A stretch of DNA of 54,870 nucleotides. It comes from an uncultured Candidatus Peribacteria bacterium. Its GTDB lineage: Bacteria; Patescibacteriota; Gracilibacteria; BD1-5; JAGOOR01. The notes under the pieces are model-generated. The model ran no database searches, was not told the DNA's origin, and saw only the letters and a program-made list of their open reading frames with translations. A program made the translations under genes and the position numbers. Below are positions 5,392-48,859 of the stretch, in pieces (within the stretch, counting starts at the first letter, position 1; each line of letters opens with the position of its first letter). Where the stretch lies: assembly GCA_964413195.1 (NCBI GenBank), contig CAYPRD010000002.1:1-54870 (forward strand). The letters run 5' to 3'.

Positions 5392-5397
5392 TCTTGT

Positions 5398-6747: not shown

Positions 6748-6757
6748 CTATTTTTTT

Positions 6758-7174: not shown

Positions 7175-7176
7175 AA

Positions 7177-7196
7177 GTATTTTTGACCAAAAATAC
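7177..7196 (+). terminator. weak AT-rich hairpin after rplS
   Basis: GTATTTTT-GACC-AAAAATAC stem-loop followed by T-rich sequence. The stem is all A/T apart from the G-C closing pair. Confidence 0.3.
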
Positions 7197-7222
7197 GCGT
7201 CTTGTTTTCTCATTTTTTCCCC

Positions 7223-7228
7223 TAATAT
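7223..7228 (+). promoter_or_regulatory. -10 box TAATAT, 6 nt before the ATG (leaderless-type)
   Basis: TAATAT-catagt-ATG(7235). No purine-rich SD in between. Confidence 0.45.
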
Positions 7229-7234
7229 CATAGT

Positions 7235-8122
7235 ATGAATATTTTGATTACTGGGGGAGCTGGTTTTATTGGATCACATTTGGTCGATTCCTGTATTGAT
7301 GCGGGCCATACCGTGTGTATAGTTGATAATTTTTCTTCTGGCTTGAGAGAAAATATTGTCCATCATGCCAATAATTCTCGCGTTATTATTTGCGAAGCAG
7401 ATATCACAAACCGTGACAGAATGGATGAAATATTTAGCACATTTCTTCCGGGTGCTGTTTTTCATTTAGCGGCACAAATTAATGTTCGTGAATCAATGAA
7501 AAATCCAGCGAAAGATATTTCCATAAATATTCTTTGAACCATACATATCCTTGATCTCATGAAGAAGTATGAGTGTAATCGTATAGTGTTTTCTTCGACT
7601 GGATGAGCACTCTTTTCTGGTGGATTGCCGCCATATTCAGAAGACCATACTCCTTCCCCAGAAACACCATATGGAATTTCAAAATACACAGATGAAATGC
7701 TTCTTTCTTTTTATCAAAGACAGCATGGAACGCTTGTCACTATTTTGCGTTATGCAAATGTGTATGGACCTCGACAAAATCCGCAGGGAGAAGCAGGGGT
7801 GATTTCTATTTTTCTTGAAAAAATACGTATCCAAGAACGTCCTACAATCTATGGTAACGGAGAACAGACTCGGGATTTTATCCACGTATTTGATGTTGTT
7901 GCTGCAAATATGCATGTACTCAAAAATGATATTTTATGAGTCTTTCATGTCGGTACTGGAGTAGAGACATCGGTAAATCAAGTCTGGAGTCTGTTGGGTA
8001 CGTCGAGTGGTTTAGAACCAATATATGTTCCTGCACTGGGAGAAATTCAGAGAAATTCTCTCAACCCTACCAAGCTTCAGAAAACAGGTTGGGTGATCAG
8101 ATATCCAAATATTACTTTCTAG
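7235..8122 (+). CDS. NAD-dependent sugar epimerase/dehydratase (GalE-like SDR)
   Basis: MNILITGGAGFIGSHL (GxxGxxG) and YGISKYTDE (YxxxK). Three in-frame TGA, including SSTG(TGA)ALF. TAG at 8120. Confidence 0.85.
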
Positions 8123-8123
8123 T

Positions 8124-9188
8124 ATGGCGTATCATCACCTTAATGTTCTTACGATTTTTCCTGATCGTCTGCATCATAATTTTTCCTATCTTCGTTCACG
8201 GAGTTCACATATCATACCAGTTCCCGTTTTAAAAAGTAACGCTTATGGTCATGGCATCAAGACCATTGCACCTCTTTTGTTCGATTATCGTGTACCATTT
8301 GTGTGTGTTGACTCTCTCTATGAGGCATACGAATTGGAAAAGTATGGGTACGATGAAGATATACTTATTATGTGATATGTTGATCCACGTGATGTACCTT
8401 TGAGAAAAAATTTTCATTATGCTGTCTTTGGCGCTGAATATGGGAAAGCTCTCATACGAAAATATTCCAAAATACGACTGCATCTTTTTCTAGATACAGG
8501 CATGCATCGAGAAGGCATACTGGATCTAGACCTCACAGATTTCCAACCTCTTATCAAAAATACTGTTGGACTTATGTCTCATCTCTCAACTCCCGATAAT
8601 ATCTTGGTGAGCGGTGAGCAGATCACGAGTTTTAGTGCGACAAAAAAAATTCTCCAGTCTGCTTGATTTTCATTTCTGTATACACATATTCATGCTTCTG
8701 GAGGACTTCTACAGTCCACTTCACTTCACGATGATATAGCCCATGCAAGAGTGGGATTAGCATATTATGGGTATGGTCATCCAGACCTTCTACCCGCACT
8801 TCGGTGCACGACGCGTATTGTCCAAATAAAAACATTGCAACCTGGTGCGACCATAGGATATGATGGAACATATCATGTGACACGAGTCATGAAAGTTGCT
8901 GTCCTTCCCATTGGATATAATGATGGGCTTGATCGTCGGCTGTCTTCTGGTGGTGAAATGATGATTGGAAATATCGTCTGCCCACTTGTATGAAGAATAT
9001 CGATGAATGTCAGTGTCATTGATATCACCCACGTCCCTCAGGTTACCCCAGGGGATGAAGTGTGTTTTATAAGTGAAATTCCTGGGGCACCAAATGCCCT
9101 CGAAGTGCATGCAACAAAATGTGGCACCATTCCTTACGATATGCTCGTACATATAAACAAAGAAATGCATCGAACTACCAGAGTCTAA
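8124..9188 (+). CDS. alr: alanine racemase
   Basis: VLKSNAYGHG (PLP-Lys motif), LDTGMHREG, PIGYNDGLDRRLS. Four track fragments in one frame joined by 3 TGA. Confidence 0.85.
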
Positions 9189-9227
9189 ATCTTTACATAA
9201 TAAATTTATATTTATAATATATTTACT

Positions 9228-9530
9228 ATGTGAGATATATACGCATCATCCTGACCTCTCCGTTCTTTCCCGAGAAGTAACTGAATGTGCGATACTGCTA
9301 GTTGTCTTACCTGCAACTGTCCATTTCGATCTCTGGTGTTGTGCCGTATTTTAGGTATACATCCGGGCTCTCTCTCTTCTACTAATGTTCCTCCAGATGT
9401 TCTTGAGCTTGTTCGGCGTATACCGAGAAATGTTTTTGAAGTTGTTATTCACACTGATGAGTTTACGGGGCATGAGCATATAGTACGTGGTGTACGACCA
9501 CTTGAGGCTGTTTCTGATGACGATTTATAA
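9228..9530 (+). CDS. hypothetical Cys-rich protein (100 aa)
   Basis: ATG TGA .. open to TAA at 9528. Includes track ORF 9285..9530 (CLTCNCPF..). -10-like TAATAT lies 7 nt upstream. No family recognised. Confidence 0.45.
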
Positions 9531-18103: not shown

Positions 18104-19162
18104 CTAGAATTCAATTTTTTCTATAGATTGCCCAATACTCTCAAGAATTTCATCTTTTTCTCTTCCGTGTGCTAAACGGGGTTGTCCATATCATTCTATG
18201 ATGATAGGAATCAATTCTAATCATGCTAGTTGGGGTTTTACAGCATGCTTTATGCTGACGCGTACGATCAATCCTTGTTTTGTCTCTGGGCTGAACTCTT
18301 GATCAAAGACAAAATTTCACAGAGAATAGAAAATATATTTTCCCCGATAAACTTCCACCGGTTGTATCCAGTGAGGATGTGCTCCCAGAACAAGATCTGC
18401 CCCGTGATCAATAGCAGTGCGAGCAAAAGTTTTTTGGAGAGCGGTCGGGTGTCGTGAATATTCTTGTCCGGCATGCATATTGACGACAACGATGTCTGCT
18501 TGTTTTTTTGCTTCTTCGAGAGAGAGTATCAAATTTTGCGTATCCTGCATTCGAGCAATCTGCTCATGTGTGCCCGTCCCGTCATCATTATAGGCTGCAT
18601 ATGAAGCTCAGAGAAAAGCTATTTTTATTCATCGTACTTCCTGAATCTGCGGTTTCCATGGATCATCACCGACCCCAACAGGTTTTATACCTATTTTTGT
18701 AAGGAGATCTTGTGTTGTCTGTAGTCATGCTTCCCCTTGATCGAGAGCGTGATTATTGGCGAGACTTACGAGACGAAAATTAACGGTAGTAAGCGACTCT
18801 ATGAGGTGAGGAAGAGCATTAAATACGAGAGTTTTTTGATAGGAATATATCGGTGTTCCATTGGTGGGGGATTCGAGATTGCCAAAAACAAAATCAGCAC
18901 TTTTTAGAAGAGAACCAATCTTCTCCCAAATCCATGTTGGTCATCCTCACTTTTCTGCATACCGAGCCACATTTCTGGAGAGCATAATGTCACCAGTTGC
19001 TATGAAAACTACTGATGATGCTGGAGCTGGTGGAGGTGAATCTGATGCTGAGAGAGGGGGACTGAGAAAGGCATATATAAGTGTTGCGCTCACGAGAAAA
19101 GATACCAGCATTAGGCTCACGGCAAAAAATAAACGAATGTTGCATATGTGCATAGCTCTCAT
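18104..19162 (-). CDS. capA: CapA/PGA_cap-type metallophosphatase (poly-gamma-glutamate capsule synthesis family)
   Basis: Track fragments 18947..19162 and 18317..18550 lie in one frame of 353 codons with 8 TGA and no TAA/TAG (checked triplet by triplet). FIATGDIML, GNLESP, ANNHALDQGE, VNMHAGQEY, GAHPHWIQP, SL(TGA)NFVFDQ. Confidence 0.85.
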
Positions 19163-19213
19163 GCTATTGAACTTCTCTTAAGTGCAATAGACTTTCAAAA
19201 TATAGCAAGATTC

Positions 19214-19846
19214 TTATTGAATGGCAACAACCACCCGCAAGAAGCGCTTGGCGTTCTGCGGGGGCTTTTTGTAGTCGGTCAGGCGGTAAAAGGCATCAGC
19301 ACCGATTTGCTGGACTTCGATCAGCTCCACTCCCGGCATGGAGGGCGTGAGGACAATCAAGCCGTTGCTCGTCTTGACGGTGCCGAGGTCTTCCCACTGC
19401 TGCAGGTCGTCTGTGCCTTGAAAGGTGATCTTCAGGGCGGGATCGGTTGGAATCGTGGGGATGCGCAAAAAGAGGTTCTGCGGTGGAAGTCCGGGGTCTT
19501 GAATCTGGCCTGTCTCCACAGGCCCCGTGATGCCGGCGTATTCGGCAAGGTTCTTCGTGCCGTCGCCATCGGCGTCTTGGTCGGGATTGCGGAGAGGATT
19601 GGTGGCTCCGTAGGTGGCCAAAGCCCATGCATCGTAGAGCTGCAAGGCATCGGGTCTGGTCACTCTCACTTCCACAAGGTTCCCTACTCTATCTGGTTGG
19701 TAGGCGACACGGCCACGAGAACCGTAGTCCACTGCCACAAGACGCCCATCGGTGTCATAGGAGTAGTCGGCGGTGATGCTCACCGGGTCAGCAATGGCAG
19801 AGGCTGCACCGAGCAGGAGAGCGCTACAGGTCGAGATCGGGTTCAT
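19214..19846 (-). CDS. secreted YD-repeat / Ca-binding-motif protein (island ORF 3)
   Basis: Signal-peptide-like MNPISTCSALLLGAASAIA, one YD repeat (YSYDTDGRLVAVDY) and a DQDADGDG motif. TAA stop. High GC. Confidence 0.6.
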   Translation of the reverse strand: MNPISTCSALLLGAASAIADPVSITADYSYDTDGRLVAVDYGSRGRVAYQPDRVGNLVEVRVTRPDALQLYDAWALATYGATNPLRNPDQDADGDGTKNLAEYAGITGPVETGQIQDPGLPPQNLFLRIPTIPTDPALKITFQGTDDLQQWEDLGTVKTSNGLIVLTPSMPGVELIEVQQIGADAFYRLTDYKKPPQNAKRFLRVVVAIQ

Positions 19847-20276
19847 GGCGATGATTGCGTTTAATGGTGCGGAAATCTTCTGGATACGTCTTTCGCCGCC
19901 ATGATTGGAATTCTTCCGTTATCACGGGATCTTCGTCGGCTATTTCGCAGGTAAAACCCTCCCGCATCATTATTCGAGGCATGATTCTCACTTCTTCGGC
20001 AGAAATCATTTGAAGCTCTACATCTCTCGGAAATTCCGGTTCCACAATTTCAAATAGGCTCGCAGGGAATGCCGTGATCCAGCGGACTGGCACCTCAATT
20101 TCAAAGTGCAGACACCGTTTCCCGGTTTCCGCTTCTTCAAATGAAAGCCCAAGCACCCGATACTGCTCCCCGACTTCCAAAAGGTCTGCCGATGGAATCC
20201 CCCGATGTTGTTGGATTTCAGGAGTTCTCTTTATGTAGCACTCAGGATCGTTGATGGCTATACACTTAACGATCAT
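19824..20276 (-). CDS. putative immunity protein for the upstream Rhs C-terminal toxin
   Basis: ATG begins immediately after the toxin TAA (stop 20279..20281, ATG 20276..20274). 150 aa acidic protein. Called from its position, which is typical of Rhs toxin-immunity pairs. No family recognised. Confidence 0.5.
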   Translation of the reverse strand: MIVKCIAINDPECYIKRTPEIQQHRGIPSADLLEVGEQYRVLGLSFEEAETGKRCLHFEIEVPVRWITAFPASLFEIVEPEFPRDVELQMISAEEVRIMPRIMMREGFTCEIADEDPVITEEFQSWRRKTYPEDFRTIKRNHRHEPDLDL

Positions 20277-20278
20277 AT

Positions 20279-21268
20279 TTACTTGGGTTTTGGTTCATAA
20301 ATTTTACCTGTGGCATCGTTTCTATAAGCGTGAATTTGAATTTTTGACCCGTCCATCAACGTCTCGTGCCGGGAAGTAATCTTCTGCCAATCATTCGGTC
20401 GCCCCCCGTAAGTTTTTACAAGACGATTAATGTCATTTATTTTCTTCTTAACTCCTTTCCCTGCCATCACTCTATATTCGTTGGAGTATATTTTTTGCAG
20501 GAGTCGTTTTCCTGCCTCTATCCGCTGAGTGGTTACTACCCTCCCCACCTTGTTCAGACCAGCCGGAACGCCGGGAATAAATACGGAGAGGACATCGGAA
20601 CCGATGTCCTTCGCATCCTGCTTGAAGGTCTGCTTGTCCCACTTTCCGGTTCTGATGGCGGCAGCGGTATGTCCGATAAGCTGTCCGGTGTCCCAGAGCG
20701 TCACTCCAGCATCCCAGATGATATCGATGACATTGCCACTGGGATCAACGTAGGTCAGGGGATTCCCCCTCGCATACGCATAGCGGTTGAAGGTGGAAGG
20801 GTCTTGCAGGGTGCCTGTGACGGCATCTTGTGAGAGGAAGGCATGGGTGCGGGTGCAGTAGTGGCGTGCTCTCATCGAGAGCAGGCCTGACCCGTCATCC
20901 ATGACGCCCCATTCACCGCCGTGGCGGTAAGGATTGTAAAGAGCAAGACCGGAACCGCTGATGGAATCAGCCGTCAGTCCAAAAGGATCGTAGCCAAAGG
21001 CTTGTGTCGTAGTCTCGTCGGCTTGTGTCAGTGCCAGCGTGTTGCCGTGGGGATCGAAGTGAAACACTTCGTCGTTTAGGTATGAACCATCAGTATTGAA
21101 ACGGGCCAACAGGCCGAGTCCCCAGACGTAGTAGGCAGTGACCGCACCGGTATCCGTCATCTGTGCTAAAGCACAGGGCAGCGGTCTATTGTCATCGACA
21201 ACGTATCGCTGAACAGTGGAGCCGAGCTGACGTTCGAGACGAACGCCATCACCATTGTAGCGGAAAAT
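20279..21268 (-). CDS. 5'-truncated Rhs core plus C-terminal polymorphic toxin domain (orphan Rhs-CT)
   Basis: FRYNGDGVRLERQ, YYVWGLGLLARF, FHFDPHGNTLAL, FGYDPFGL, ARHYCTRTHAFLSQDAV..NRYAYARGNPLTYVDPSGN (Rhs core end), then about 165 aa of non-Rhs tail. Rhs similarity starts abruptly at the GC/AT junction. Confidence 0.8.
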   Translation of the reverse strand: MFRYNGDGVRLERQLGSTVQRYVVDDNRPLPCALAQMTDTGAVTAYYVWGLGLLARFNTDGSYLNDEVFHFDPHGNTLALTQADETTTQAFGYDPFGLTADSISGSGLALYNPYRHGGEWGVMDDGSGLLSMRARHYCTRTHAFLSQDAVTGTLQDPSTFNRYAYARGNPLTYVDPSGNVIDIIWDAGVTLWDTGQLIGHTAAAIRTGKWDKQTFKQDAKDIGSDVLSVFIPGVPAGLNKVGRVVTTQRIEAGKRLLQKIYSNEYRVMAGKGVKKKINDINRLVKTYGGRPNDWQKITSRHETLMDGSKIQIHAYRNDATGKIYEPKPK

Positions 21269-27523: not shown

Positions 27524-28075
27524 ATGGAAACAGATTTTTCAAAAATGCAAAATCTATTGTTCCGTTCAGCTGAAAAAGTATCCCACAGTTATTGAAGTTT
27601 CCCTCAGTACATTCGAGACTACATGGATCGATTCTTGGAGGGTGCGGATGTTCTTACAAAAGAGGAAGTTTTAATTCAATTACGTTTATGTACTCAGAGA
27701 CCCCCGTGTGGGTTTATGCATGAGTTTTCGATTCTACGAAATACCGCTTGAAAATGAGCTCCACCATATGACTTCTCAGGATTTATTCATGGTCCTTCAA
27801 CTTGCCCAAATAGAATATGAAATTGTCTCTGTGCTCACTCAAATATTCTTGGTTTAGTTTTAAGAGCATTGATTCTACTCAACCGTGAGGATAAGGCAGA
27901 AAAGTTACTTCAACCTATCTTTCTTATGATGGTGTATGACTGACACTTTGCCACTGTTGTGCAAATGGGCGAACAACCTTATCTTATGGATAAAAATTGA
28001 TTAGATAATCAGGTCCAGGTTGGAGCTCAAATTATGCAAACTGTTCAAACCACTATTGCTTTACTAGCTGCTTAA
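27524..28075 (+). CDS. hypothetical protein (183 aa)
   Basis: 184-codon frame with 6 TGA and no TAA/TAG (checked triplet by triplet). Invisible in the ORF track. No family recognised. Confidence 0.6.
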
Positions 28076-28079
28076 GTAT

Positions 28080-28811
28080 ATGCCCAATTTTGTACCTAAT
28101 AATGATGGATATACACGTATTCATGAGTTTACTTCTCTTAATTTTACAAGCTCACAAGAATGATCTTGGGATCCAGATGCTCATATTGCGGGACTGATGT
28201 CTCGTTCTTGGGAAAGAACTTGTGAAGAAGCGTTATATGCAGGGCATGCGCCTCTTATAAATAACGCTCTAGCAAGATTTATATCTGCTGAAGTGCGAGA
28301 TAATGTTGCCAATGTCGTTGGTAATCCTCAAGGGGTAATGTATAGTCAAGTGATTGGATGGAGAACTTCTCCTGAAATTGAACATTATAATTGAGAAGAC
28401 CACCCAAAGAGTATGAGTGTTCTGTGTATTGCTCAAACACGTGATGGTCGTTTTTGCTTCCGTTCGCGATGAAAAATGTGAGACTGGCACCATTCTCTTC
28501 TGGAAATGCCAGGAGGTTTTTTTAGAACGTCAGACCAGGATCCAACAAAGGCCCTTGTGAATAGATTCCAAGAAGATTACAACGATCCGAATTTTTTTCC
28601 AGGCTTTCAATGGTTTTGAATGATGGAGAGTCCCAGAATTGGAGAGTGCGTATCCCTGGCCTATGCGATCTTACCTGAATGATATATACCGCCAGATTCT
28701 ATATATATTCATCCAGATGATTTGGGTAAAAATAAAGCAGTAATTGCGCTCCCTTCTTTTGCGATAGTGAAATTCTTTTTGGAAGGTTGATTGGATTATG
28801 TAGGATATTAA
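28080..28811 (+). CDS. hypothetical protein with a degenerate Nudix-like box
   Basis: 244-codon frame with 7 TGA (checked). LEMPGGFFRTSDQDPTKALVNRFQEDYN resembles GX5EX7REUXEE with substitutions. Includes track ORF 28197..28394. Confidence 0.5.
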
Positions 28812-31015: not shown

Positions 31016-32062
31016 TTATTCAAAGAGAGTATTGTCATTCTTTTTGACCCAATCGAGGGATTTTCCTTTTCACCAAAAGGACCATAAGAGGATGTCCGTA
31101 AATGTGTATGAGCCAGCACGGAGGTCGTCGAGAGGATTCATAGCAAGCTCGAAATGCAAATGATAGAGGTATTTCTTATCAGGTACAGCAGAGTCTCCTA
31201 CGCGACCGATGATATCGCCACGTTTTACCCATTGACCCTTCTCGAGTTCGGATGGGATATCAGAAAGGTGCGCATAGATGGCTACGTGCCCAGAAAGTGT
31301 TTTGAGATAGACAGTATTTCCTCGGTATACATCCAGATTTTCTTGTTCTTCGAGATCGGAATCTCCAGGGTGGAGGTGGTTCATTTCTTCCCACGAGAAG
31401 TCACGTTTAGTATGTATAATCATACCATCTTCTATAGCGTGAACGAGAGTGCCTTCTTGGACATAAAAATCCCATCCATGATGGACTCCGTCTGTTTTCT
31501 GCGCTCGAAATGGACGAGGAGCGTTTGGTAAGTGAGAATTATTATTTGGAAGAGGAATTCCTGGTATGGGGAGAGAAAATTTTACTTTCCTGGTTTCCAA
31601 AATCAGAGAAATATCTGAAAAGAATCGTCGCATACGAGCCGAAGAAAATCGGTAGTCCGTAAAGAAGACAGATCATGCGCGAAGGGTGTTTGTCAGTGTC
31701 TCTGTTGAAACATCGCTGAGGGATTCGCGCGATGGGTATGATCATTGAAGAGGTAGAATATAGTTCTTTCCCTTGTACGTGACAAGAGGAAGTGGACAAG
31801 TGGTCACCGGCTTCCACTGAATAACTCGTGTCGTAGGCTCTTCTTTCAGTGTTGTTTGTTCATTTTCACAGGGAGAGATCAGTTTTTCTCCAGGATCCAC
31901 GCTCACAAGTACTGATGAGCTATTATCGAGGTGTGTTATGCCCGAAAAAAGAATCTCAAGACCGCTCCTACTAGCACTATTACTCACTTCAGGGGGTTCT
32001 GAAATAAGAATGGCTGGAGTACACAGCAGAAATGTTGCAACGAAAAAATGGGAACGAATCAT
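31016..32062 (-). CDS. secreted M23/LytM family metallopeptidase
   Basis: Track ORFs 31742..32062 (signal peptide) and 31070..31633 are one frame joined by TGA. HHGWDF (HxxxD) and YHLHFE (HxH). TAA at 31016. Confidence 0.85.
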
Positions 32063-32231
32063 AGATTTTGTCTCTTGTAACTCTCTTTGAGTGTATAAAA
32101 AAATTGATCAAATCAAACAAAAAACACATAGTATTTCTTGATTATCCGTTCTTTCGCGTACAAAACATTCTCTGTGAAGAATACGTGAAGGGTATTTCTT
32201 TTCTTTTCCCCTCGATTATAGTACTTTCACT

Positions 32232-33896
32232 ATGAAATATCTTCTTTTCTTTTTTGCCAGCGTAGGGATAGCATTTGTATGAGCAACGAGCCCCTTGGAT
32301 GCCGCTCGAGACTTGGCACAACAGGGGATCATCATCAATCAGTCTTCCTCTTTCGCGGGCAATTCTTCTTCACAAGAATCTTCTCTCTACCGTCTCAATG
32401 ATTTTCTCTCTCGACAAGAAGCGCTCGGTATTGCACTCAAGCTGCTATGAGCGAATCTGGATAACAGATATACTTGTCGTGGATACTTTGCGGATACGTC
32501 AGAATGGTGGGTGTGTCGGGCTTCTGAAATTGCTGCTGATTATGGTCTGGTGACACGCGCGAATAGACATTTTCGTCCCCGAGACACTTTGACACTGGCT
32601 GAATCCCTGGGAATACTTTTTCGGACCCTCGATATTCCTTTGTCTCAGACATCAACTCGTACTCTTGCGGGAAATGTGCCGGATTGGCAAAAGCGCATTA
32701 TTCTTACCATCAATGAACAATCTACTAATACGAGATTCTTTCGGGCCAAATTTGTACGTTCGTTAATTTTTCCTCCAGCCCTATGATGATATGAATTGGA
32801 TCTTTCGAATTTTGTTTTTGACGAATACTCAGATGGGTACTATAGCATTGGTCTTCAACAAAAATTAACTCGTGGTCAATTTTTTCAGATTGTTCTCTTA
32901 CTGACTCATTGATCCAATTCTCTCTGTTCCTCATATCGTTATTCTACCTGTCCCGCATCGTGCCAACCAGTTTGTCGCCCAAGTTCTTGTACGCCTGATG
33001 GGATTTGTACTGCTGATTGCGGATGAGCAGGAAGTTGTCAGGAAAAAACTGATGATGTACTTCTTCATTGTACGTCCTACAATGATGGATGTAATGATTG
33101 TGTCCGGATCAACGGTGTTGCTGCGTGTACAAAACGTGCTTGTTTTGTCCAATGAACTCCATCCTGCAGTGTTTGTGAGGAGGGATATACGCTCCTTTCT
33201 TGACGATGTGTGCAAAAAGAAACTACGTGTGTTGCCGAGGGATGATATGCAGGAGGTGGATATGTTCCTCATCAGGAAGATATAAATTCTTTTCAATGTT
33301 GTTCCAGCCTTGTTCGTGCTGATCGTAAAGATGGGAACATGATTGCCGATGGTGGTGCTATTTGTATCCGTCAGGGCGATGGATTCTGTGATGCTCGCTA
33401 TGAAAGCGCCTATAATTCTTCTGATTGCCGTCCTGCTTTTGACCTGACTGTTTGTGCATCGTATTATGATTGATGTAATACCTGTTCACGAACATCTTCT
33501 GGTCAATCTGTATGTACTTTGCGTGCCTGTATGACCCCGTGAATTCCATATTGCACGAGTTATATTCCTTATACTCCGCGAAATCAAAACCAAGACCGAG
33601 CCTTTCTGGATAAAATTGATACAGAAATTCAGGCGTACCTTGCTGATGTTTCGTGTCTGGATACGAGTGACTGTAAATATGCTTCTATGGGAGATCGCCC
33701 TTGCAACATATCGAGTGCTATGATACCGTATTCAACCAGAAATGTAGATAGCGTCCTCCTGAATCAAAAAACATTGTTTTATACTGACGCAGAAAAACTC
33801 TATAATACGACCTACAACATTGTAGGACCGTGTATATATCTATCACCACCTCGTGATCTACGTTGTATCAATCGCACGTGTAGTGCAAATTATTAA
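32232..33896 (+). CDS. secreted Cys-rich protein with an SLH-like N-terminal region and repeated CxSYxDGCNxC modules
   Basis: 555-codon frame with 11 TGA and no TAA/TAG (checked). Signal peptide MKYLLFFFASVGIAF. Repeats HCTSYNDGCNDCVRINGVAACTKRAC and VCASYYD(TGA)CNTCSRTSSGQSVCTLRAC. Confidence 0.75.
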
Positions 33897-42675: not shown

Positions 42676-43587
42676 TTACCCGCCAAACATTCTATAGTTT
42701 TCCAGTATTTGAGTTTGTTGGATTTTATCTGCCGGTTGCTCACAGCTCATATTTTCTATGGTTATCATAATTTCGCGGTGAATAGCACGTATTTCTTCAT
42801 CGGTTGCATCGGTACAAGTGATACACAAATACATACCAGTCATACATCCAAAGGTTCCTACAATCACTGCTTTTCCAGGAAAACGAACACGTAAATTTTG
42901 TTCGAGAGTTTCTGAGAGCCGGTAGCTAAACTTAGGTTCGAGAGTGAGGCATGTATCATTTTCATGAGTCTTTGGCTTGAGGAGGCGTAGATCACAGACC
43001 ACTGCTTTTGTATCGGATGTTGTGTGCTTTTCAACAAGTATTTTATACTGTTTTTGATCAATTTCCGCGAGACTCTCTTGGGCTGCGTGTGGGTCATGAA
43101 ACGTAAACTGTCCACACTGTTGTGCGGTCGCAAATGGTACTCAGAGAAATCCTTCTTTGTCTCCGTGGCCTTCTTCAATACCTCCGATATAACTTAGGGC
43201 TCTTTGTATCGAGCTTGCTACTGCCGCTCGGATACTCTGTGTGTCCAATTCTACAAGAGTAGTTATACGAAAGCCATAACCTGCTTTTGTTTGAAAGGGG
43301 GAAATATCTAGGATCATCCGTGTATCGAGTGCTGGTAAATATTCTGCGAGACTTGATCGGAGACTTCCCGTGTCGCGAGTGTAGGCGAGGAGGTGTTCAT
43401 TGGTATGCATACCAGCATGGAACCGCAGATATTCATCCTCATGGGGGAACGGGAAGAAATCGAGTGTGTAGGTAGTGATCGTGAGAGGAGCATCTGCAGT
43501 AATATGTTTATCAACCGAGAGTGTTCACCCTGTCATGGCTGTGTGGTCTTTTTCGCTGGAATGTGGTCCGCTCGTAAAAGTAATCAT
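42676..43587 (-). CDS. tandem LuxS-like protein (two S-ribosylhomocysteinase-like halves)
   Basis: Half 1 has KDHTAM, HTNEHLLAY (HxxEH), DISPFQTKAGYGF (GCxTG Cys missing) and ATAQQCGQFTFHD. Half 2 has TFGCMTGMYLCI (GCxTG present) but no HxxEH. One TGA. Frame checked. Confidence 0.7.
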
Positions 43588-43593
43588 ATGTGT

Positions 43594-43621
43594 ATTGTAG
43601 ATATTTCTCTGTATGTGTAAA
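43594..43621 (-). promoter_or_regulatory. promoter with -10 placed 6 nt before the ATG (leaderless-type)
   Basis: On the minus strand: TTTACA, 16 nt spacer, TACAAT, then acacat-ATG(43587). Confidence 0.45.
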
Positions 43622-43636
43622 TTTCAATTTTTCACA

Positions 43637-43682
43637 GAAAATAATTTTTCCAGAAAAAACATTTGTCAGAAAAATTATTTTC
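43637..43682. promoter_or_regulatory. pair of inverted 14-nt quasi-palindromes, candidate LexA operators
   Basis: GAAAATAATTTTTC (43637..43650) and GAAAAATTATTTTC (43669..43682) are exact reverse complements. The second one fills the -35/-10 spacer of the lexA promoter. Confidence 0.4.
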
Positions 43683-43690
43683 CTTATAAT
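43663..43690 (+). promoter_or_regulatory. lexA promoter
   Basis: TTGTCA, 16 nt spacer, TATAAT. 27 nt upstream of ATG 43718. Confidence 0.5.
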
Positions 43691-43717
43691 GCTTGTGTTA
43701 TTTTTTCTCTCTTTCCT

Positions 43718-44335
43718 ATGAGACCTCTTGATGGACGTCAACGTGATATCTTGGAATTTTTAACACAGAACCAAGAATATTCACTCACATTAGCAGATAT
43801 CGGTGCTGCTGTTGGCATTGATCATCCACAGAAGGTTCTGGATAAGATCGATCAGCTCCTTCGCATGTGATATATCGCTAAGAGTCCGTTTGGGGGATAT
43901 CAAGTCCTCAAACATTTTGAGGAGACAGACCAGCTCTCGATCCCTTTTTATGGATTTGCACAGTGCGGACATGCGGGACCAACTATCCTAGAGGAATACC
44001 CTAGAAAAAAACTTGAAATCGATAAGGATCTTATTGTCTCTGCTGAGAAAGATACATATTTTGTGACCCGAGCAAAAGGGGATTCGATGGAACCGTTTAT
44101 TCACTCAGGAGATTTTCTGTTAATCAAGGTACAAAAAGGTTTTCATTCCGAAGACCAGGTCATGGTGGTGCACAATGGAGTTCCAAAAATCAAAAAAGTT
44201 CTGCAAGATGGAGAGAAACTCGTGCTTCGTTCTTTTAACCGTGAATTCGGAGATTTTGTTGTGGAGATGGATGATGAAGCCCAGGTAATTGGCGTTGTCA
44301 GGAAACGTTTCCCAAAAGATGCTTTTATTGTCTAA
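43718..44335 (+). CDS. lexA: LexA-type repressor (wHTH plus S24 peptidase)
   Basis: Track ORFs 43613..43870 and 44063..44335 are one frame joined by one TGA. CGHAGPT (Ala-Gly cleavage site), KGDSMEP (catalytic Ser), PKIKKV (Lys). Confidence 0.88.
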
Positions 44336-47300
44336 GTCGGGGTATCTTCTGCGAGTTGAATTTCACTTCACACCTTCTTGATCCTATATTTTCCTCCCTT
44401 TACTCATCGATTTCTTGAGATAGATACCATGTATTGGGCTATACTTGCATCAATAGCTCTGTTAATTTCACGAAGGTTAAAGAAATCAGCACTTAATGGA
44501 GGTTTTGTTCCTTGTCAAAAACCTCTTATTACATTATCTGAGGCATTGTGTGTTCTGCAGACACTTTCACATATTCAGTAAATAAAATCAACAACGTCAT
44601 CATCGATACCTGTTATTTCGATCTCAAAATTTATCATCATTGGTCTCATTCCAATGAGCATTAAATTTTGTCGTACTGCCCTTCTAAATTCTTCTTTTGA
44701 GACTCATAGCATAGGGAGTATGTTAAATCGATTTGCAAATTCTGGCTTTTTAACTCATTTATCATCTTGGAATGCTTCGGCGATACAATCAACTATTTGA
44801 CTTTTATCCATACCGGCATGGAGCTTTTCTGCTCCTGCGTTTGTTGCAGCTATGATAATATATCTTTTTCTTTGGAATGTCTTCCCTACACCAGAGGTCA
44901 TTTTCCCTTCATCTACAAAATTCATAATTGCCATGCGAACTTCAGGGTGCATCTTATCGAGCTCATCTATAAAAACTATCCCTAGTTCATTATCTCTCAT
45001 GAAATTTGTTAAGGTGCCTCATTCATTTGAATTAACGTATCCGGGAGGAGATCATGTAAGGCGTGCTACAGAATGTGCTTCCTTATACATCGAGCCATCA
45101 AGAGTGAGTAGGGGAATATTAAAGTGCTTATGTAATACCTCGGCCATCCATGTCTTTCCGACTCACGTAGGTCATGGGAAGAGAAATGACAATGGTCTGT
45201 CAGGATTAGATCAACCAAGGATATGAGATTCAACTCGAGCACAAAATGTATTGATAACATGGGCTTGTCATACAATATGTTCATTGAGTATTCCTGGTAG
45301 AGCTTGTAAGCTTTTCTGTAATCCTTCCATTTGTTGCGTATTGGTCATGTCAAGAAATGTAGACACGGCAAAACCAAGATCTTCTCAATTAATCTCTCTT
45401 CTTCCACATGCATGACTATTAATAGCACAGGCTTGAATAATGCGAATACTGAGATGAAGTGGATCAGTTCCAGGATTCCGCATTCGAGCGACAATAGAAA
45501 CAATTCTCATAATGATTGTCTCTGGTATTATAACTCACAAAGATGTACTCATTTCATCTCTACAGTTGCATAATCTTGACCGTATTTCTTGATCAGAAAA
45601 AGCTGATATTTGTACCAGATTTTCTACCCCTGGGATGCTTTGAGGTCCAGAAATAACTATTTTTAGTCCTAATCTTCCCACGATTTCGAGAAATTCTCCA
45701 ATTTTTTGTGCGTCAACATATTGAGTTGGTAATCGTAAGACTATGACGGTGTCAGGGTTATAGTTTGCTATTGCAAGAAGGCCTTCATGGATTTTTGTTA
45801 TATCATCTATAATTGTTCCTGGATCTCATCACTGCAGAAGAGATAATAACGCCTTCCATCAGTTTTTTTCTTCTATTCCAATTTCCACTACTGAGTGATT
45901 CTTGAGAGAGTCCGGAACACTACCTGCCATTATCCTTTGCGTTAAACGTCCAAAGAGTCTTTCTGGAATAGCATCATAATCTCATCACCCACTGTTGTAT
46001 CTTGTGGTGTCTACTACTAGTACACTTCATGTTTCCCCGAGTCCTTGGATCATGCTATCCACTTCTGGATCCAGTCAAAGATCTTCCGATTCAGGCTTCA
46101 TAGCTACTGCATGAGTGCTTTTAACACTTGTTGCCGGGGCTTGAAGATTATCCATAAAAATTTGTGGCTCGTAATTCTGTTGGACGAGTTGATATCTTTC
46201 AAAAAGAGATGCGTTTATATGAAATCGTCTTATGCATAGCTGAACAAGAAAAGGAGGTATTTCTCTTATTCAATTTTTACTACATATCTCCAGTATTTGG
46301 ATCATAGCTTCTTCTGTTATTTCTTCAGTTTTTTCTAATATAAAATAGAGTATATCTAAGAGGTTTCTTTTTTCTTTCCAGCGACCATCATGCTCCATTG
46401 TCTCGACTACATGTCGTAAGTTCTGTACGCCAACGACTTTTACCCCTTTAGTACGAAGAATTTCATATATAAATCTATTTTGACTCATACTTTCTCTTTT
46501 CTTGGAATCAATTCACATAGCTTCTTCCATAAATCTTGGTGTTTGGCTTCATAAAAATTGTACTTGCCTCAATCAGTCATAATCATTTTCAAATGCTCAC
46601 TCTCCAAAATATATCATTGGCTGTGCCTCTAGTCTTGTCCCAAAAGACTGATCCATATGATTGCAAGATCGAGTCTTTAATATTTTACATATAGTTGCAA
46701 AAGATTCTTTTGACCCTCTTTCTGCTGAAAATGTATATACGACTTTTCTACTTCCAGAAGATTTTTTACCAGGAATTCATAGACCTCTAATCTGTTCTTC
46801 TAATGTTTTTTTTGTTGTATTGCCTGAATTTCTAAATGGTTTTTTTGCCATAGAGGGGTGGCCAACTCATGTTAATATATATCGTAATGACAAAAAGAGT
46901 AGATCTTCTGCAGAATTGTCGTAACCTTCAAAATCGAGATCTCCTACAATATCCAGAGGTACAAATTCATATTCTTTTTGATGTGCTCAAGAACTAATTT
47001 CTCCATATCTTTCTAATCATAATCGAATCAATTCATGGAGTCATTTCCCAGATACAGATGTTCCATTTCTACAATCTATGGCGACTTTATTTGTGGTTCT
47101 TCTGGAAAATGCGTTATGGATTGTATGGAGGCCAAGCATGAAAGGCCTAATTGCATTGATTGCCGGAATTTGTCTACGAACAGGGAGGGTACCAATATAT
47201 CTACCGACAGCACCTTTTCAATTAAAATCCGGTATTCCTAATAGATCGGAGAGATTGTCATCTTTTCTAAGTATCCGCCTATCGATGACATGTCAGAGCA

Positions 47301-47643
47301 CTGTTCATTTTACTCTTAACAAAAGATTATTTAATTCGTGTCCTGAGATTTCCCCTTCTTTTTTTTCATCTAAAATATTTCTATCCTCTTCACTTTTTCT
47401 ATTCCGTTCGTATCTTGCCATACGTCGTCATAGTACTGTTAGATTAAGCAATGCTCACGTTTTTCTTATTAATCACAGTGATTCACATTCGCGGATGGCA
47501 TCTTCATCTTGTGCATGGGAACTTTCGCCTTTCTTCTCCAGGAGAGCGATTAAAAGATTTTTTATTGTTTCCGCTGTTTTCCCGGCTTCCTGTAACTCAG
47601 AGGTATTTATGGAACTCGTTTGTTGAGATTCTAGGGGGGGCAT
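44332..47643 (-). CDS. 1103-aa ClpA/B-like AAA+ protein: unknown N-terminal region, degenerate D1, intact D2
   Basis: One frame from ATG 47643 to TAG 44332. All 56 sequence lines were split into triplets and no TAA/TAG was found. About 37 in-frame TGA. D2 has GQAHVI..FLFPGPTGVGKT..GSPPGYV..IVFIDELDKMHP..IIIAATNAG. D1-like region has no GKT. Confidence 0.85.
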
Positions 47644-47647
47644 GAGA

Positions 47648-47670
47648 TTATTTTAAATTATTTAAAATAA
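47648..47670. promoter_or_regulatory. perfect 11-1-11 palindrome overlapping the -10 of the AAA+ gene
   Basis: TTATTTTAAAT-T-ATTTAAAATAA. On the minus strand the -10 TAAAAT (47655..47650) lies inside it, 6 nt before ATG 47643. Confidence 0.4.
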
Positions 47671-47709
47671 TTATGGTTTATTAAACATTTTGTCAAATTT
47701 TATTTTATA

Positions 47710-48345
47710 TTAATTATTTTTAATAAAATCTAATATAAACGGGAGATGTTCTATGACTCTTTTTCCGGCATGAAGATTCTTCTCAAAATCTTCCTCGGCA
47801 CTAGAGTTGGCATTATCGGATATTATTTTTAGTACCAGCAGTGATACCGCATAATGATGAGCAACTTTTGCCAGAGCGGCACCTTCCATGTCGACCAGTT
47901 GTCCACCACGTACCTGGAGAGATTCTCGCATACTTTCTGTTGTGATAAATTGATCCCCAGTGACTAAAACTCCCTGTTTCAGCTCAGGATGTTCAACCGT
48001 AATAAGGTCAAAAAGAGGGTAGAGTCGGTTTTGTGTTTCGGGCATGTTTTCAAAATATCCGTCATGTTCGATCGTTTTTGTAGCTACTACTACATCACCA
48101 AAACATAAATGTGGACTCAAACTTCCGGCGAGGCCAATATTGATAATAATATCGACCCTATGTTGTTCGAGAATTTTTGTGAGTGTCATGGCAGCAGCTA
48201 CCTTCCCTATGCCGCTGAGAGCGAAGATATAGTCCCCAAATACGACCACACTTCCTACAGAAAGGTTCTCTGTGAATCAGAGAAAATGAGCTATTGGTAC
48301 TATTTCCTCTTCCATGGCCGATATGAATGCTATTTTTTTAGTCAT
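47710..48345 (-). CDS. mtnN: 5'-methylthioadenosine/S-adenosylhomocysteine nucleosidase
   Basis: MTKKIAFISAMEEEI (E. coli KIGIIGAMEEEV), SGIGKVAAA, VDMEGAALA. One TGA upstream of track ORF 47710..48249. Confidence 0.88.
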
Positions 48346-48859
48346 ATTGTAGTACAGAGTACAGTTCAGAAGGTTCTATTTTTTTTCTTCATCATAAAGA
48401 AAGGAGCTCTATGATGACTCCTCCAAAAACAGCACTGGCGCCATTTTCTCGAGCAAGATCAAGTGATGCTTTCATGGTTCATCCAGTTGCGAGAACATCA
48501 TCAGCGACGAGCACCCGGTGTCAGGTTAGTATATCTTTCCTGATGGTGAGAGTAGCGTGACTGTATTCGTAGCTATAGGATTTTTTTGAAACTAACGTTT
48601 CCGGAAGTTTGCCATCTTTTCGGATCATGATAAATGGAAGCTGGTATTTTTCAGCTAACATACTCCCCAGCACAAAACCACGGGCATCGACGCCTGCGAT
48701 GGCATCAATATGTTTATCTTTTATAAATGTGCGGAATCCTTCCAACATACTGGTGCGTTTTTTTGGATCAAAAAGCAGAGGAGATATATCCCGAAAAAGC
48801 ACTCCTGGAATTGGAAAGTCCTGGTAATTTGTCAGCAAATGGTCGAATTCGTTCGTCAC
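48338..48859 (-). CDS. apt: adenine phosphoribosyltransferase
   Basis: GVDARGF and VLVADDVLATG(TGA)T (PRPP motif ..ATGGT). GTG start. TAA at 48338 overlaps the mtnN start. Confidence 0.88.

What the first reader, a model, noticed from the sequence alone, without database searches (positions are those of the whole stretch)
44332..47643. A 3.3 kb apparent gene desert is one 1103-codon AAA+ gene with an unknown N-terminal half
The ORF track shows only two short minus-strand fragments here, plus a spurious 182-aa plus-strand ORF. Splitting every line into triplets gives no TAA/TAG from ATG 47643 to TAG 44332, with about 37 in-frame TGA.
- The C-terminal third is a clear ClpA/B D2 module: FLFPGPTGVGKT, GSPPGYV, IVFIDELDKMHPEV, IIIAATNAG.
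- Upstream of it is a D1-like module with the Walker A replaced (VLVVDTTRYNSGGGDYDAIPERLFGRLTQRIMAGSVPDSL, no GKT) and IIDDI in place of the Walker B.
- There is no long M-domain coiled coil.
- The first roughly 480 residues match nothing I recognise.
The gene appears monocistronic. It has its own palindromic promoter region and converges on lexA with a 4-nt overlap. A dead-D1/live-D2 Clp-type unfoldase fused to a large orphan domain has no obvious assignment in a reduced genome.
Basis: partly seen in the sequence, partly recalled or inferred. Interest (0 to 1): 0.75.

Follow-up and report, generated by a model that had tools for sequence, protein, structure and literature searches.

The report
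Clp-type unfoldase with dead upper tiers
The apparent gene desert is one real 1103-codon gene of a Gracilibacteria genome that reads TGA as glycine; it belongs to a small, unnamed family of Clp/Hsp100-like protein-unfolding machines in which only the last ATPase module is alive.

Summary
Window 44332..47643 (-) is a single 1103-codon ORF with 37 in-frame TGA and no internal TAA/TAG. TGA encodes glycine (code 25): it falls on invariant Walker A glycines, and it swaps with GGN in an orthologue.

The C-terminal third is a complete Clp D2 motor with every catalytic residue. It has no ClpP-docking loop and no M-domain. The middle region (~513-747) is a genuine D1-derived AAA+ fold that has lost its P-loop, its Walker B acidic pair and its arginine fingers.

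- The Walker-B-equivalent strand is TVIVLR (633-638), not IIDDI.
- The N-terminal half is not orphan. An exhaustive HMMER search found a family of about 35 representative proteins of 1070-1360 aa that are homologous over their full length. They occur in code-25 and in standard-code bacteria. One is a 50.6%-identical orthologue with 43 TGA.

AlphaFold and Foldseek on a family member suggest, weakly but consistently, that the N-terminal core is a third, degenerate AAA+-like module.

There is no conserved gene neighbourhood, no family name and no N-terminal Pfam domain. My best reading is a stand-alone, ClpP-independent single-motor unfoldase with two non-catalytic tiers. It is a new variant of a known kind and of moderate interest.

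The parts
44332..47643 (-). Whole CDS: 1103 codons plus the TAG stop, with 37 TGA read as Gly (code 25)
47254..47643 (-). N1: N-terminal helical region, residues 1-130. The fold is uncertain and only a weak wHTH-like hint exists.
   Evidence: AF2 model of homologue P0184 has low to moderate confidence here. Pfam wHTH-PRTase_assc E 0.14. 43.5% identity to the L010 orthologue.
46108..47253 (-). N2: alpha/beta core of five strands plus a helical lid, residues ~131-512. Predicted to be a degenerate AAA+-like module with no conserved P-loop. The long family members carry a coiled-coil insertion here.
   Evidence: AF2 pLDDT 77-92 in P0184. Foldseek top hits in both PDB and BFVD are AAA+/STAND ATPases, but weak (E >= 3.6e-3). 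Sequence profiles are not significant. Mapping to the target.
45403..46107 (-). D1 pseudo-ATPase tier, residues ~513-747: a Clp D1-derived AAA+ fold
   Evidence: hhalign family-D1 vs ClpC D1: Prob 78%, E 1.8e-5, 201 collinear columns. Foldseek of the full-length homologue model onto ClpA/ClpC/ClpB D1+D2 protomers: TM 0.64-0.72.
45961..46026 (-). D1 beta1 (SVLVVD) plus TTRYNSGGGDYDAIPE, which replaces the Walker A P-loop. The family motif VD.T.Y (D545, Y549) is nearly invariant.
45730..45747 (-). D1 beta3 TVIVLR (633-638): the Walker-B-equivalent strand, with no acidic pair
44335..45402 (-). D2: intact Clp-type AAA+ motor with large and small subdomains, residues 748-1103
   Evidence: Pfam AAA_2 E 2.8e-32. 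ClpA/ClpB NCBIfam E ~1e-41. PDB ClpB D2 E 6e-36. BLASTP runs to the C-terminal end of ClpC.
45151..45174 (-). D2 Walker A GPTGVGKT (K830). Both leading glycines are encoded by TGA.
45016..45054 (-). D2 pore loop GSPPGYVNSNEGG. Y869 is invariant in the family.
44953..44979 (-). D2 Walker B IVFIDELDK. D893 and E894 are invariant.
44833..44859 (-). D2 sensor 1 IIIAATNAG. N935 is invariant. No IGF/LGF ClpP loop follows it.
44722..44745 (-). D2 arginine-finger region PEFANRFN. R972 is invariant.
44452..44484 (-). D2 sensor 2 region FFNLREINRAI. R1058 is invariant and aligns with the R of GAR in ClpC.
47647..47696 (-). Upstream spacer: sigma70-like TTGACA-N18-AATTAT (47696..47667) and a perfect 12+12 AT palindrome (47647-47671)
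   Evidence: These are consensus matches only; function is untested.
43613..44335 (+). Convergent lexA-like gene (LexA_DNA_bind + Peptidase_S24) that overlaps the target's 3' end by 4 nt

Best explanation
The gene encodes a member of a small, so far unnamed branch of the Clp/Hsp100 AAA+ unfoldases.

**Shown**
- It is a single code-25 ORF.
- D2 is complete, with an invariant Walker A Lys, Walker B Asp-Glu, pore-loop Tyr, sensor 1 Asn, Arg finger and sensor 2 Arg.
- D1 keeps the AAA+ fold and is collinear with Clp D1. Across the whole family it lacks the P-loop (VD.T.Y in its place), the Walker B acidic pair, the KYRG pore loop and the Arg fingers.
- There is no Clp_N domain, no M-domain and no ClpP-docking IGF/LGF loop.
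- The N-terminal half is conserved family-wide.

**Inferred**
- The protein assembles into a ring like its relatives.
- It uses ATP hydrolysis only in the D2 tier to grip substrate polypeptides with Tyr869 and thread or unfold them.
- The dead D1 tier and the N-terminal module (predicted to be a third, degenerate AAA+-like unit) act as a non-catalytic scaffold, entry channel and substrate/adaptor-recognition platform.
- It works without ClpP, as a remodeller or disaggregase rather than a protease partner.
- It is an independently transcribed, low-expression gene, judged from its TGA-rich, low-GC3 codon usage.

The substrate is unknown.
For: ORF and genetic code. In one search, 25 conserved Gly columns pair TGA in one species with GGN in the other.

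D2. Invariant catalytic residues across 28 sequences are listed.

D1 ancestry and degeneracy:
- HMMER finds a 23-aa collinear hit.
- Single-sequence hhalign gives P 3.8e-4.
- Profile-profile comparison gives E 1.8e-5 against D1, compared with 0.049 against D2.
- Foldseek places the full-length homologue model on ClpA/ClpC/ClpB D1+D2 protomers with E ~1e-25 and TM(target) 0.64-0.72 over ~640 columns.

Family: exhaustive phmmer returned 41 representatives at E<1e-10. The top hits are 1070-1364 aa long with D2 at the C-terminus, and the full-length alignment shows 20-30% identity to the target.

Purifying selection: the L010 orthologue is 50.6% identical with almost no gaps (N 42-44%, D1 48%, D2 64.5%).

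No ClpP loop or M-domain.

Stand-alone gene: seven different neighbourhoods.

N-terminal AAA+-like fold.

Codon usage.
Against: - No biochemical or oligomeric-state data exist for any member, so ring formation and threading are inferred by homology only.
- The AAA+ assignment of the N-terminal module rests on weak Foldseek scores (E >= 3.6e-3, TMq <= 0.27, high rmsd) for a model of a 30%-identical homologue. Sequence profiles do not support it (P 0.02-0.2).
- The target itself could not be modelled, because the tools refuse code-25 translations.
- In canonical ClpB/Hsp104, D1 nucleotide binding and its Arg fingers contribute to assembly and regulation (established knowledge; e.g. PMC4239642 listed). 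A ring with a fully dead D1 is therefore not guaranteed.
- No partner gene or context points to a substrate.
- I could not check whether the host also has a canonical ClpB/ClpC/ClpP.
Confidence: 0.6

Rival explanations
1. It is simply the lineage's highly diverged housekeeping ClpB/ClpC orthologue, the sole Hsp100 disaggregase of a reduced genome. Its odd features would be drift rather than a distinct family.
For: The best sequence and structure matches are ClpB/ClpA/ClpC. Reduced, fast-evolving genomes often carry divergent housekeeping genes.
Against: The same architecture recurs in standard-code bacteria with ordinary gene content: a dead D1 with a conserved VD.T.Y, a ~500-aa conserved N-terminal half, and no Clp_N or M-domain. 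The target's D2 is only ~30-36% identical to any ClpB/C among 5.8 billion proteins, yet 57% identical to family members in the core fragment. The family is rare, with 41 representatives, unlike ubiquitous ClpB.
Confidence: 0.12
2. It is not a threading unfoldase. Instead it would be a nucleotide-dependent switch, scaffold or sensor (STAND-like or TnsC-like), possibly part of a defence or targeting system, with the N-terminal modules sensing a ligand.
For: The Foldseek hits for the N-terminal module include TnsC, CED-4/Apaf-1, an NLR resistosome and ORC/Cdc6. Conserved non-catalytic residues at the former D1 nucleotide site (D545, Y549, R562, K661) could form a ligand site.
Against: The D2 pore-loop Tyr and the full Clp D2 catalytic set are invariant, which is typical of translocases. 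There is no PADLOC hit, there are no defence or transposition genes nearby in seven contexts, and nothing was found on phages or plasmids.
Confidence: 0.12
3. The three AAA+-like modules of one chain, times two chains, build a single planar pseudo-hexameric ring, as in dynein, midasin or RNF213. In that case the protein would not form a three-tier hexamer.
For: Dynein, Mdn1 and RNF213 AAA modules are among the N-terminal module's fold matches. There are three successive alpha/beta-plus-lid units in one chain.
Against: In the model, D1-D2 superpose as a stacked pair on ClpA/ClpC protomers, with TM 0.64-0.72 over ~640 columns. That fits tiers, not a planar arc. The fold matches to dynein are weak.
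Confidence: 0.06
4. The ORF is a decaying pseudogene or a non-functional relic, and the TGA codons are real stops.
For: 37 TGA codons would break the gene under table 11.
Against: TGA sits on invariant glycines and exchanges with GGN in the orthologue. Neighbouring housekeeping genes (rpoB, rpoC) also contain in-frame TGA. There are 1103 codons free of TAA/TAG. The orthologue is intact and 50.6% identical.
Confidence: 0.01

Closest known systems
ClpB / Hsp104 (class I Clp/Hsp100 disaggregases)
   Same: It has a tandem D1-D2 AAA+ architecture. D2 is of the AAA_2 type with GYVG-type pore-loop Tyr, sensor 1, Arg finger and sensor 2. There is no ClpP-docking loop. These proteins are also the best sequence and structure matches.
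   Different: D1 is catalytically dead: it has no P-loop, no Walker B acidic pair, no KYRG pore loop and no Arg fingers. There is no M-domain in the D1 small subdomain and no Clp_N domain. An extra ~500-aa conserved N-terminal half is present.
ClpA / ClpC / ClpE (ClpP-coupled class I unfoldases)
   Same: The D1+D2 protomer fold is shared (Foldseek TM 0.64-0.72), and D2 aligns to the very C-terminus of ClpC.
   Different: It lacks the IGF/LGF ClpP loop (a gap in the alignment, absent family-wide). It lacks the Clp_N, UVR and M-domains, and D1 is dead.
Skd3 / human CLPB (single ClpB-D2-type ring with a non-AAA N-terminal domain)
   Same: It works with only one active, ClpB-D2-like motor ring plus a large N-terminal substrate or regulatory region. 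PDB CLPB chains match D2.
   Different: Skd3 has ankyrin repeats and no D1 at all. Here a D1 pseudo-tier and a further AAA+-like module are retained.
Pex1/Pex6, and other type II AAA proteins with one degenerate ring such as NSF (known from the literature, e.g. PMC6862443 and PMC10518020 listed)
   Same: The functional logic matches: a double-tier AAA machine in which one tier is a non-hydrolysing scaffold and the other is the motor.
   Different: They belong to a different AAA+ clade (classic AAA with SRH, eukaryotic, hetero-hexameric). They are not specifically related by sequence.
ClpI of Actinomycetota (PMC10149685)
   Same: It is a precedent for a bioinformatically defined additional class of double-ring Clp unfoldases, with subclasses that lack the LGF loop.
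   Different: According to that paper's abstract, ClpI has intact ATPase modules in both rings and an M-domain. It has no extra N-terminal AAA-like module.

Membership tests
Clp/Hsp100 (AAA_2, D2-type module) | AAA_2 domain with Walker A GxxGxGKT, Walker B hhhhDE, pore-loop GYVG-type Tyr, sensor 1 Asn, Arg finger and sensor 2 Arg | tested here: met
   Pfam AAA_2 scores 112.5 bits against a cutoff of 27. All of these residues are invariant in the 28-sequence family alignment.
Class I Clp/Hsp100 (ClpA/B/C) | A D1 AAA+ tier N-terminal to D2, homologous to Clp D1 | tested here: met
   hhalign E 1.8e-5, 201 collinear columns. Foldseek superposition of the homologue model on D1+D2 protomers.
Class I Clp/Hsp100 (ClpA/B/C) | Functional D1 nucleotide site: Walker A GxxGxGKT, Walker B DE and Arg fingers | tested here: not met
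   The P-loop is replaced by TTRYNSGGGDY (family VD.T.Y). Strand beta3 is TVIVLR (family TILVLDA). RRF is replaced by PG.P.
Class I Clp/Hsp100 (ClpA/B/C) | Clp_N (double Clp repeat) N-terminal domain | tested here: not met
   No Pfam Clp_N hit at E<=10. hhalign vs the ClpC N-domain gives P ~0.2.
ClpB/Hsp104 | Long coiled-coil M-domain inserted in the D1 small subdomain | tested here: not met
   In the target, the D1 lid passes to the D2 linker with no insertion (residues 700-790). The coiled-coil insert of the long family members lies in the N-terminal module instead.
ClpA/ClpC/ClpX (ClpP partners) | IGF/LGF-type ClpP-docking loop after D2 sensor 1 | tested here: not met
   There is a 9-residue gap opposite ClpC's KKLGFLSDN, and no such motif appears in the family consensus. 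The conserved GF at 1041-1042 corresponds to the canonical lid motif GFDP.YGAR, not to a ClpP loop.
Clp/Hsp100 | ClpB_D2-small C-terminal lid domain (PF10431) | tested here: inconclusive
   Pfam reports no PF10431 hit for the target. However, BLASTP aligns the target to the end of ClpC, including the sensor 2 Arg, and the homologue model superposes.
Clp/Hsp100 | Hexameric ring, ATP-driven substrate threading | not testable with these tools
   This needs biochemistry, cryo-EM or multimer modelling.
Unnamed family found here (P0184, P0186, P0187 and others) | A length of 1070-1360 aa, full-length collinear homology, VD.T.Y in place of the D1 P-loop, R..(L/I)M.G.V...L.N.S, DPL.L...AA, an N-terminal RF.(I/L)P...Y.P block, and a live D2 at the C-terminus | tested here: met
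   Target identity to members is 20-30% over the full length. D545, Y549, R562, G574, K661, D727 and R359 are nearly invariant. The L010 orthologue is 50.6% identical.
AAA+ fold (for the N-terminal module, residues ~131-512) | ASCE alpha/beta core plus helical lid, recognisable by structure or profile comparison | tested here: inconclusive
   Foldseek top hits in two libraries are almost all AAA+/STAND, but with E >= 3.6e-3 and TMq <= 0.27. hhalign vs AAA+ profiles gives P 0.02-0.2. The model is of a homologue, not the target.
Known anti-phage defence systems | Match to a PADLOC model, or a defence-island context | tested here: not met
   No PADLOC hit at E<=10 for residues 1-761. The neighbours are housekeeping genes.

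The most novel reading that the evidence does not exclude
The family would be a previously undescribed class of Clp/Hsp100 machine built from three stacked AAA+-type tiers per subunit. Two tiers (an N-terminal 'D0' and D1) would be ancient pseudo-ATPases retained as a passive channel and recognition platform, and only D2 would be the motor. The conserved residues at the former D1 nucleotide pocket (D545, Y549, R562, K661) would form a new regulatory or ligand site. Gracilibacteria would have kept this machine despite genome reduction, which would imply a specific and important client.
Probability: 0.35. Interest if true: 0.65.

Novelty: new variant of a known kind. Interest (0 to 1): 0.5.

Why it matters
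It turns a 3.3-kb blind spot of standard annotation into a defined gene, and it links that gene to a rare family that carries no name, no N-terminal Pfam domain and no literature that I could find.

For AAA+ biology, the family is a natural experiment. Here a Clp double-ring enzyme has run for a long evolutionary time on the D2 motor alone, with D1 conserved as a pseudo-enzyme and possibly an extra degenerate AAA+ tier on top. That bears on two open questions: what D1 contributes beyond hydrolysis, and how pseudo-ATPase tiers are reused.

Practically, it shows that word-indexed protein searches and table-11 gene calls both miss such genes in code-25 lineages. The family appeared only when a TGA-free fragment was searched exhaustively.

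Tried and rejected
- **Word-indexed protein searches.** The search with residues 1-761 found nothing. The full-length search found only ClpB/C at ~30% identity. Both missed the family.
- **GTDB representative scan.** It used exact 8-mer peptides and found only two unrelated ClpB/C loci. The source genome is not in that collection.
- **Gated tools.** They refuse code-25 translations, versions with X at the TGA sites, and DNA references that contain TGA. The target itself could therefore not be modelled or searched as a whole. I used TGA-free fragment 876-962 and the homologue P0184 instead.
- **Exact look-up of the PilB-like neighbour.** It is not on record.
- **Synteny through PilB relatives.** Relatives at 81-87% identity break synteny right after pilC, with no target-like gene within 10 kb.
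- **Other libraries.** There was no informative hit for residues 1-761 in PADLOC, PHROGs or relaxed Pfam. A PDB sequence-profile search of the N-terminal alignment gave only noise. Phage, plasmid and IMG/VR searches found nothing.
- **N-terminal module vs AAA+ profiles.** hhalign against D1/D2 profiles was not significant.
- **Taxonomy of the standard-code members.** No source gives names for these proteins or their neighbours.
- **Literature.** Four searches found no description of this architecture. ClpI differs.
- **Ideas rejected:**
  - TGA=Trp (code 4).
  - A two-gene split.
  - The conserved GF at 1041-1042 as a ClpP loop.
  - Gene-specific TGA regulation. TGA share tracks low GC3 in several genes, and whole neighbourhoods are TGA-rich in L015 and L017.
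Full report
**1. Observation**

The reverse complement of window 44332..47643 is 3312 nt. It reads ATG...TAG with no internal TAA or TAG, 37 TGA and 3 TGG. A table-11 ORF list shows only short fragments there, plus the antisense 182-aa ORF at 47078..47626.

The lexA-like gene (LexA_DNA_bind + Peptidase_S24) ends at 44335 on the + strand. It overlaps the target's stop by 4 nt.

The 66-nt spacer between the upstream Pfs/MTAN-like gene and the ATG holds two features. One is a TTGACA-N18-AATTAT match. The other is a perfect 12+12 AT palindrome 3 nt before the ATG.

**2. Genetic code**

The TGA codons fall on glycines that are invariant in Clp D2 modules: both leading glycines of GPTGVGKT, the G of VGQ, and glycines in GSPPGYV and EGG. 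In the 50.6%-identical orthologue found later, 25 conserved Gly columns pair TGA in one species with GGN in the other, and 15 columns are TGA in both.

rpoB, rpoC and other housekeeping genes of the window also carry in-frame TGA. PilB homologues place the organism among Candidatus Gracilibacteria. This is therefore code 25 and not code 4.

The target has the highest TGA density among the long genes of the window: 33.5 per 1000 codons, or 38% of Gly codons. It also has the lowest GC3, at 0.26. TGA share tracks low GC3 in several other genes too. That is why this gene in particular looks like a desert under table 11. I read this as a codon-usage class effect (weak selection or low expression), not as gene-specific regulation.

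**3. The D2 motor**

- Pfam gives AAA_2 for residues 818-975 (E 2.8e-32).
- NCBIfam ClpA/ClpB/ClpV models match 742-1039 at E 1e-37 to 1e-42, far below their full-length cutoffs.
- PDB ClpB D2 chains match 749-1012 at E 6e-36.
- BLASTP against a ClpC (P0008) runs from the D1-D2 linker to ClpC's last residues.
  - It aligns the sensor 2 Arg (FFNLR with YGAR).
  - It shows a gap where ClpC has its KKLGF ClpP-docking loop.

In the 28-sequence family alignment the following are invariant: Walker A G824/P825/G829/K830/T831, pore-loop Y869, Walker B D893/E894, sensor 1 N935, Arg finger R972 and sensor 2 R1058. D2 is therefore a complete, presumably active, translocating AAA+ module without a ClpP loop.

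**4. The family**

Two word-indexed searches of 5.8 billion proteins missed all relatives. A GTDB scan with exact 8-mers also found nothing useful.

The gated tools refuse code-25 translations. I therefore submitted the longest TGA-free D2 fragment (residues 876-962) to the exhaustive HMMER search. The top hits were not ClpB. They were 1070-1364-aa proteins with this fragment near their C-terminus, at 42-57% identity, compared with ~40% for ClpB. There were 41 representatives at E<1e-10.

These proteins align with the target over their whole length at 20-30% identity. The alignment includes the N-terminal half and the Walker-A-less D1.

- Two members (P0186, P0218) show W where G is expected. 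Their loci carry 34 and 37 in-frame TGA, so they come from code-25 genomes mistranslated with code 4.
- Other members sit on contigs with no in-frame TGA, three of which use TGA as a stop, so they belong to standard-code bacteria.
- A 62-aa fragment (P0185) led to contig L010. It holds a 1100-codon orthologue with 43 TGA and 50.6% identity overall, with almost no gaps. By region, identity is 43.5% for N1, 41.5% for N2, 48.1% for D1 and 64.5% for D2.

The N-terminal half is thus a real, selected part of one protein. The orthologue also supports the ATG at 47643 as the start.

No source gives any member a name. Precomputed Pfam hits for members are AAA-type families only.

**5. D1**

HMMER with a ClpB/C profile sees only a 23-residue collinear match, LTQRIMAGSVPDSLKNHSVVEIG. 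This corresponds to the helix after the D1 P-loop. Single-sequence hhalign gives P 3.8e-4 against D1 and ~0.2 against D2 or the N-domain. With the family profile, this rises to Prob 78% and E 1.8e-5 over 201 collinear columns against D1, compared with E 0.049 over 40 columns against D2.

The AlphaFold model of the full-length homologue P0184 (pLDDT 79.8, pTM 0.65) superposes on complete D1+D2 protomers of ClpA, ClpC, ClpC1 and ClpB. The values are E ~1e-25, TM normalised to target 0.64-0.72, and ~640 aligned columns.

Mapping the model's secondary structure to the target gives the following:

| Element | Target residues | Sequence / note |
|---|---|---|
| beta1 | 540-545 | SVLVVD, followed by TTRYNSGGGDYDAIP where the P-loop should be |
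| alpha1 | from ~561 | ERLFGRLTQRIMAGS |
| beta2 | 584-588 | SVVEI |
| beta3 (Walker-B-equivalent) | 633-638 | TVIVLR; family consensus TILVLDA |
| beta4 | 660-665 | LKIVIS |
| Arg-finger position | - | PG.P in place of the RRF fingers |

D1 is therefore a conserved pseudo-ATPase. It has no P-loop Lys, no catalytic Glu, no KYRG pore loop and no Arg fingers. It does carry family-specific, nearly invariant residues (D545, Y549, R562, G574, K661, D727).

There is no M-domain between the D1 lid and D2. The long family members do have a K/E/R-rich coiled-coil insertion, but it lies in the N-terminal module.

**6. The N-terminal half**

Pfam, NCBIfam, PADLOC, PHROGs and PDB sequence or profile searches give nothing significant.

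An AlphaFold model of P0184 residues 1-527, built with a 16-sequence alignment, has pLDDT 70.6 and pTM 0.63. The first ~120 residues are poorly defined helices. Residues ~130-510 are confident. They form five beta-strands interleaved with helices, followed by a helical bundle. The same elements appear in the full-length model.

Foldseek against PDB returns almost only AAA+/STAND ATPases among its top 50: TnsC, ClpC, dynein and Mdn1 AAA modules, ORC/Cdc6, CED-4/Apaf-1, CbbQ, Vps4, Rpt subunits, ClpX and clamp-loader subunits. The scores are weak, with best E 3.6e-3, TMq <= 0.27 and rmsd above 10 A.

The independent viral library gives the same fold class at the top (Cdc48-like, Lon-like, RFC, generic AAA), again weakly. 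Sequence profiles do not confirm this (P 0.02-0.2). I conclude, tentatively, that residues ~131-512 are a third, degenerate AAA+-like module without a conserved P-loop.

**7. Context**

In the window, the gene follows pilB-pilC-apt-pfs on the minus strand and converges on lexA, with luxS, an amidohydrolase and pyrD beyond.

The closest PilB relatives (81-87% identity) have a different arrangement after pilC and no target-like gene within 10 kb. Family members in six other loci have unrelated housekeeping neighbours. These loci are L006, L008, L009, L010, L011 and L013/L014, plus L015 and L017.

So the gene is a stand-alone gene without a conserved partner. It is not on phages or plasmids.

**8. 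Interpretation**

The shown facts fit a Clp/Hsp100-derived machine that runs on its D2 motor alone. By homology with ClpB, ClpA and Skd3, I infer the following:
- The protein assembles as a ring.
- ATP-driven threading occurs through the Tyr869 pore loops.
- The dead D1 tier and the N-terminal module serve as scaffold and substrate/adaptor platform.
- It is independent of ClpP, since it has no docking loop, and of M-domain/DnaK coupling.

The functional logic resembles Pex1/Pex6 (inactive D1, active D2) and Skd3 (a single D2-type ring with a large N-terminal region). By descent, however, it is a distinct branch of class I Clp proteins. ClpI, a recently defined Clp class, keeps both rings intact and is different. 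I found no description of this architecture in four literature searches. Absence from those searches is not proof of novelty.

**9. Verdict**

It is right on the single gene, the code, the live D2, the dead D1 and the absent M-domain. It is wrong on the Walker B assignment and on the orphan N-terminus.
- Novelty: a new variant of a known kind, in a rare, unnamed family.
- Interest is moderate at 0.5. The case is informative for AAA+ pseudo-enzyme evolution and for annotating code-25 genomes. There is no functional lead to a substrate, and the most striking element, a third AAA+-like tier, rests on weak structural evidence.

Noticed in passing
window 19100-21200: This is a GC-rich island, with GC up to 0.59 against ~0.41 background. 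It holds three minus-strand ORFs (19214-19846, 19824-20276, 20279-21160) that contain no TGA codons and have GC3 up to 0.57. Two of them hit RHS_repeat. It looks like a horizontally acquired RHS cassette fragment from a standard-code donor inside a code-25 genome.
   Followed up: partly
whole window; L010, L015, L017: TGA's share of glycine codons ranges from 0 to ~46% among window genes and tracks low GC3. rpoB, rpoC and secY use 5-8%, while the target, the pyrD-like gene, the amidohydrolase, 27524-28811 and 31773-33896 use 27-46%. The L010 orthologue is also TGA-rich (49%) while its neighbours are at 0-8%. In L015 and L017 the whole neighbourhood is TGA-rich, up to 76%.
   Followed up: partly
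window 47647-47671: A perfect 12+12 palindrome, ATTATTTTAAAT-a-ATTTAAAATAAT, sits 3 nt upstream of the target's start codon and overlaps the -10-like hexamer region. It could be an operator or an mRNA 5' hairpin. It does not resemble a Cheo-type LexA box (the LexA-box comparison is from my own knowledge).
   Followed up: no
window 42676-43662 (-): The LuxS-like ORF is 328 aa, about twice the usual LuxS length, and Pfam LuxS matches it in two stretches. It could be a duplicated or fused LuxS domain. It lies next to lexA and, across the target, near Pfs/MTAN and APRT.
   Followed up: no
window 31773-33896 (+): This is a 707-aa cysteine-rich ORF, probably secreted, with 15 TGA and only a weak pacifastin-like hit (E 1.2e-4). 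Its function is unknown.
   Followed up: no
L006 13698-14517 and 21692-22511: A duplicated gene pair, GIY-YIG nuclease plus zeta-toxin/AAA_18 kinase-like, flanks a 1510-aa unknown gene just downstream of the closest standard-code family member.
   Followed up: no
window 47710-48859; L013 2644-4678 / L014 2580-4614: Nucleoside and purine salvage genes lie directly upstream of the family gene in two unrelated contexts: Pfs/MTAN + APRT in the window, and IU_nuc_hydro + PfkB kinase in L013/L014. This may be chance, since the other five contexts do not show it.
   Followed up: partly
L003 11918-14716 (-), L005 ~5000-9400: In the closest PilB relatives, the position after pilC is taken by a 932-aa gene with no Pfam hit, on the opposite strand. 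In the table-11-called Logan contig L005 the same stretch is fragmented and looks like another 'gene desert'. It is unrelated to the target by tblastn.
   Followed up: partly
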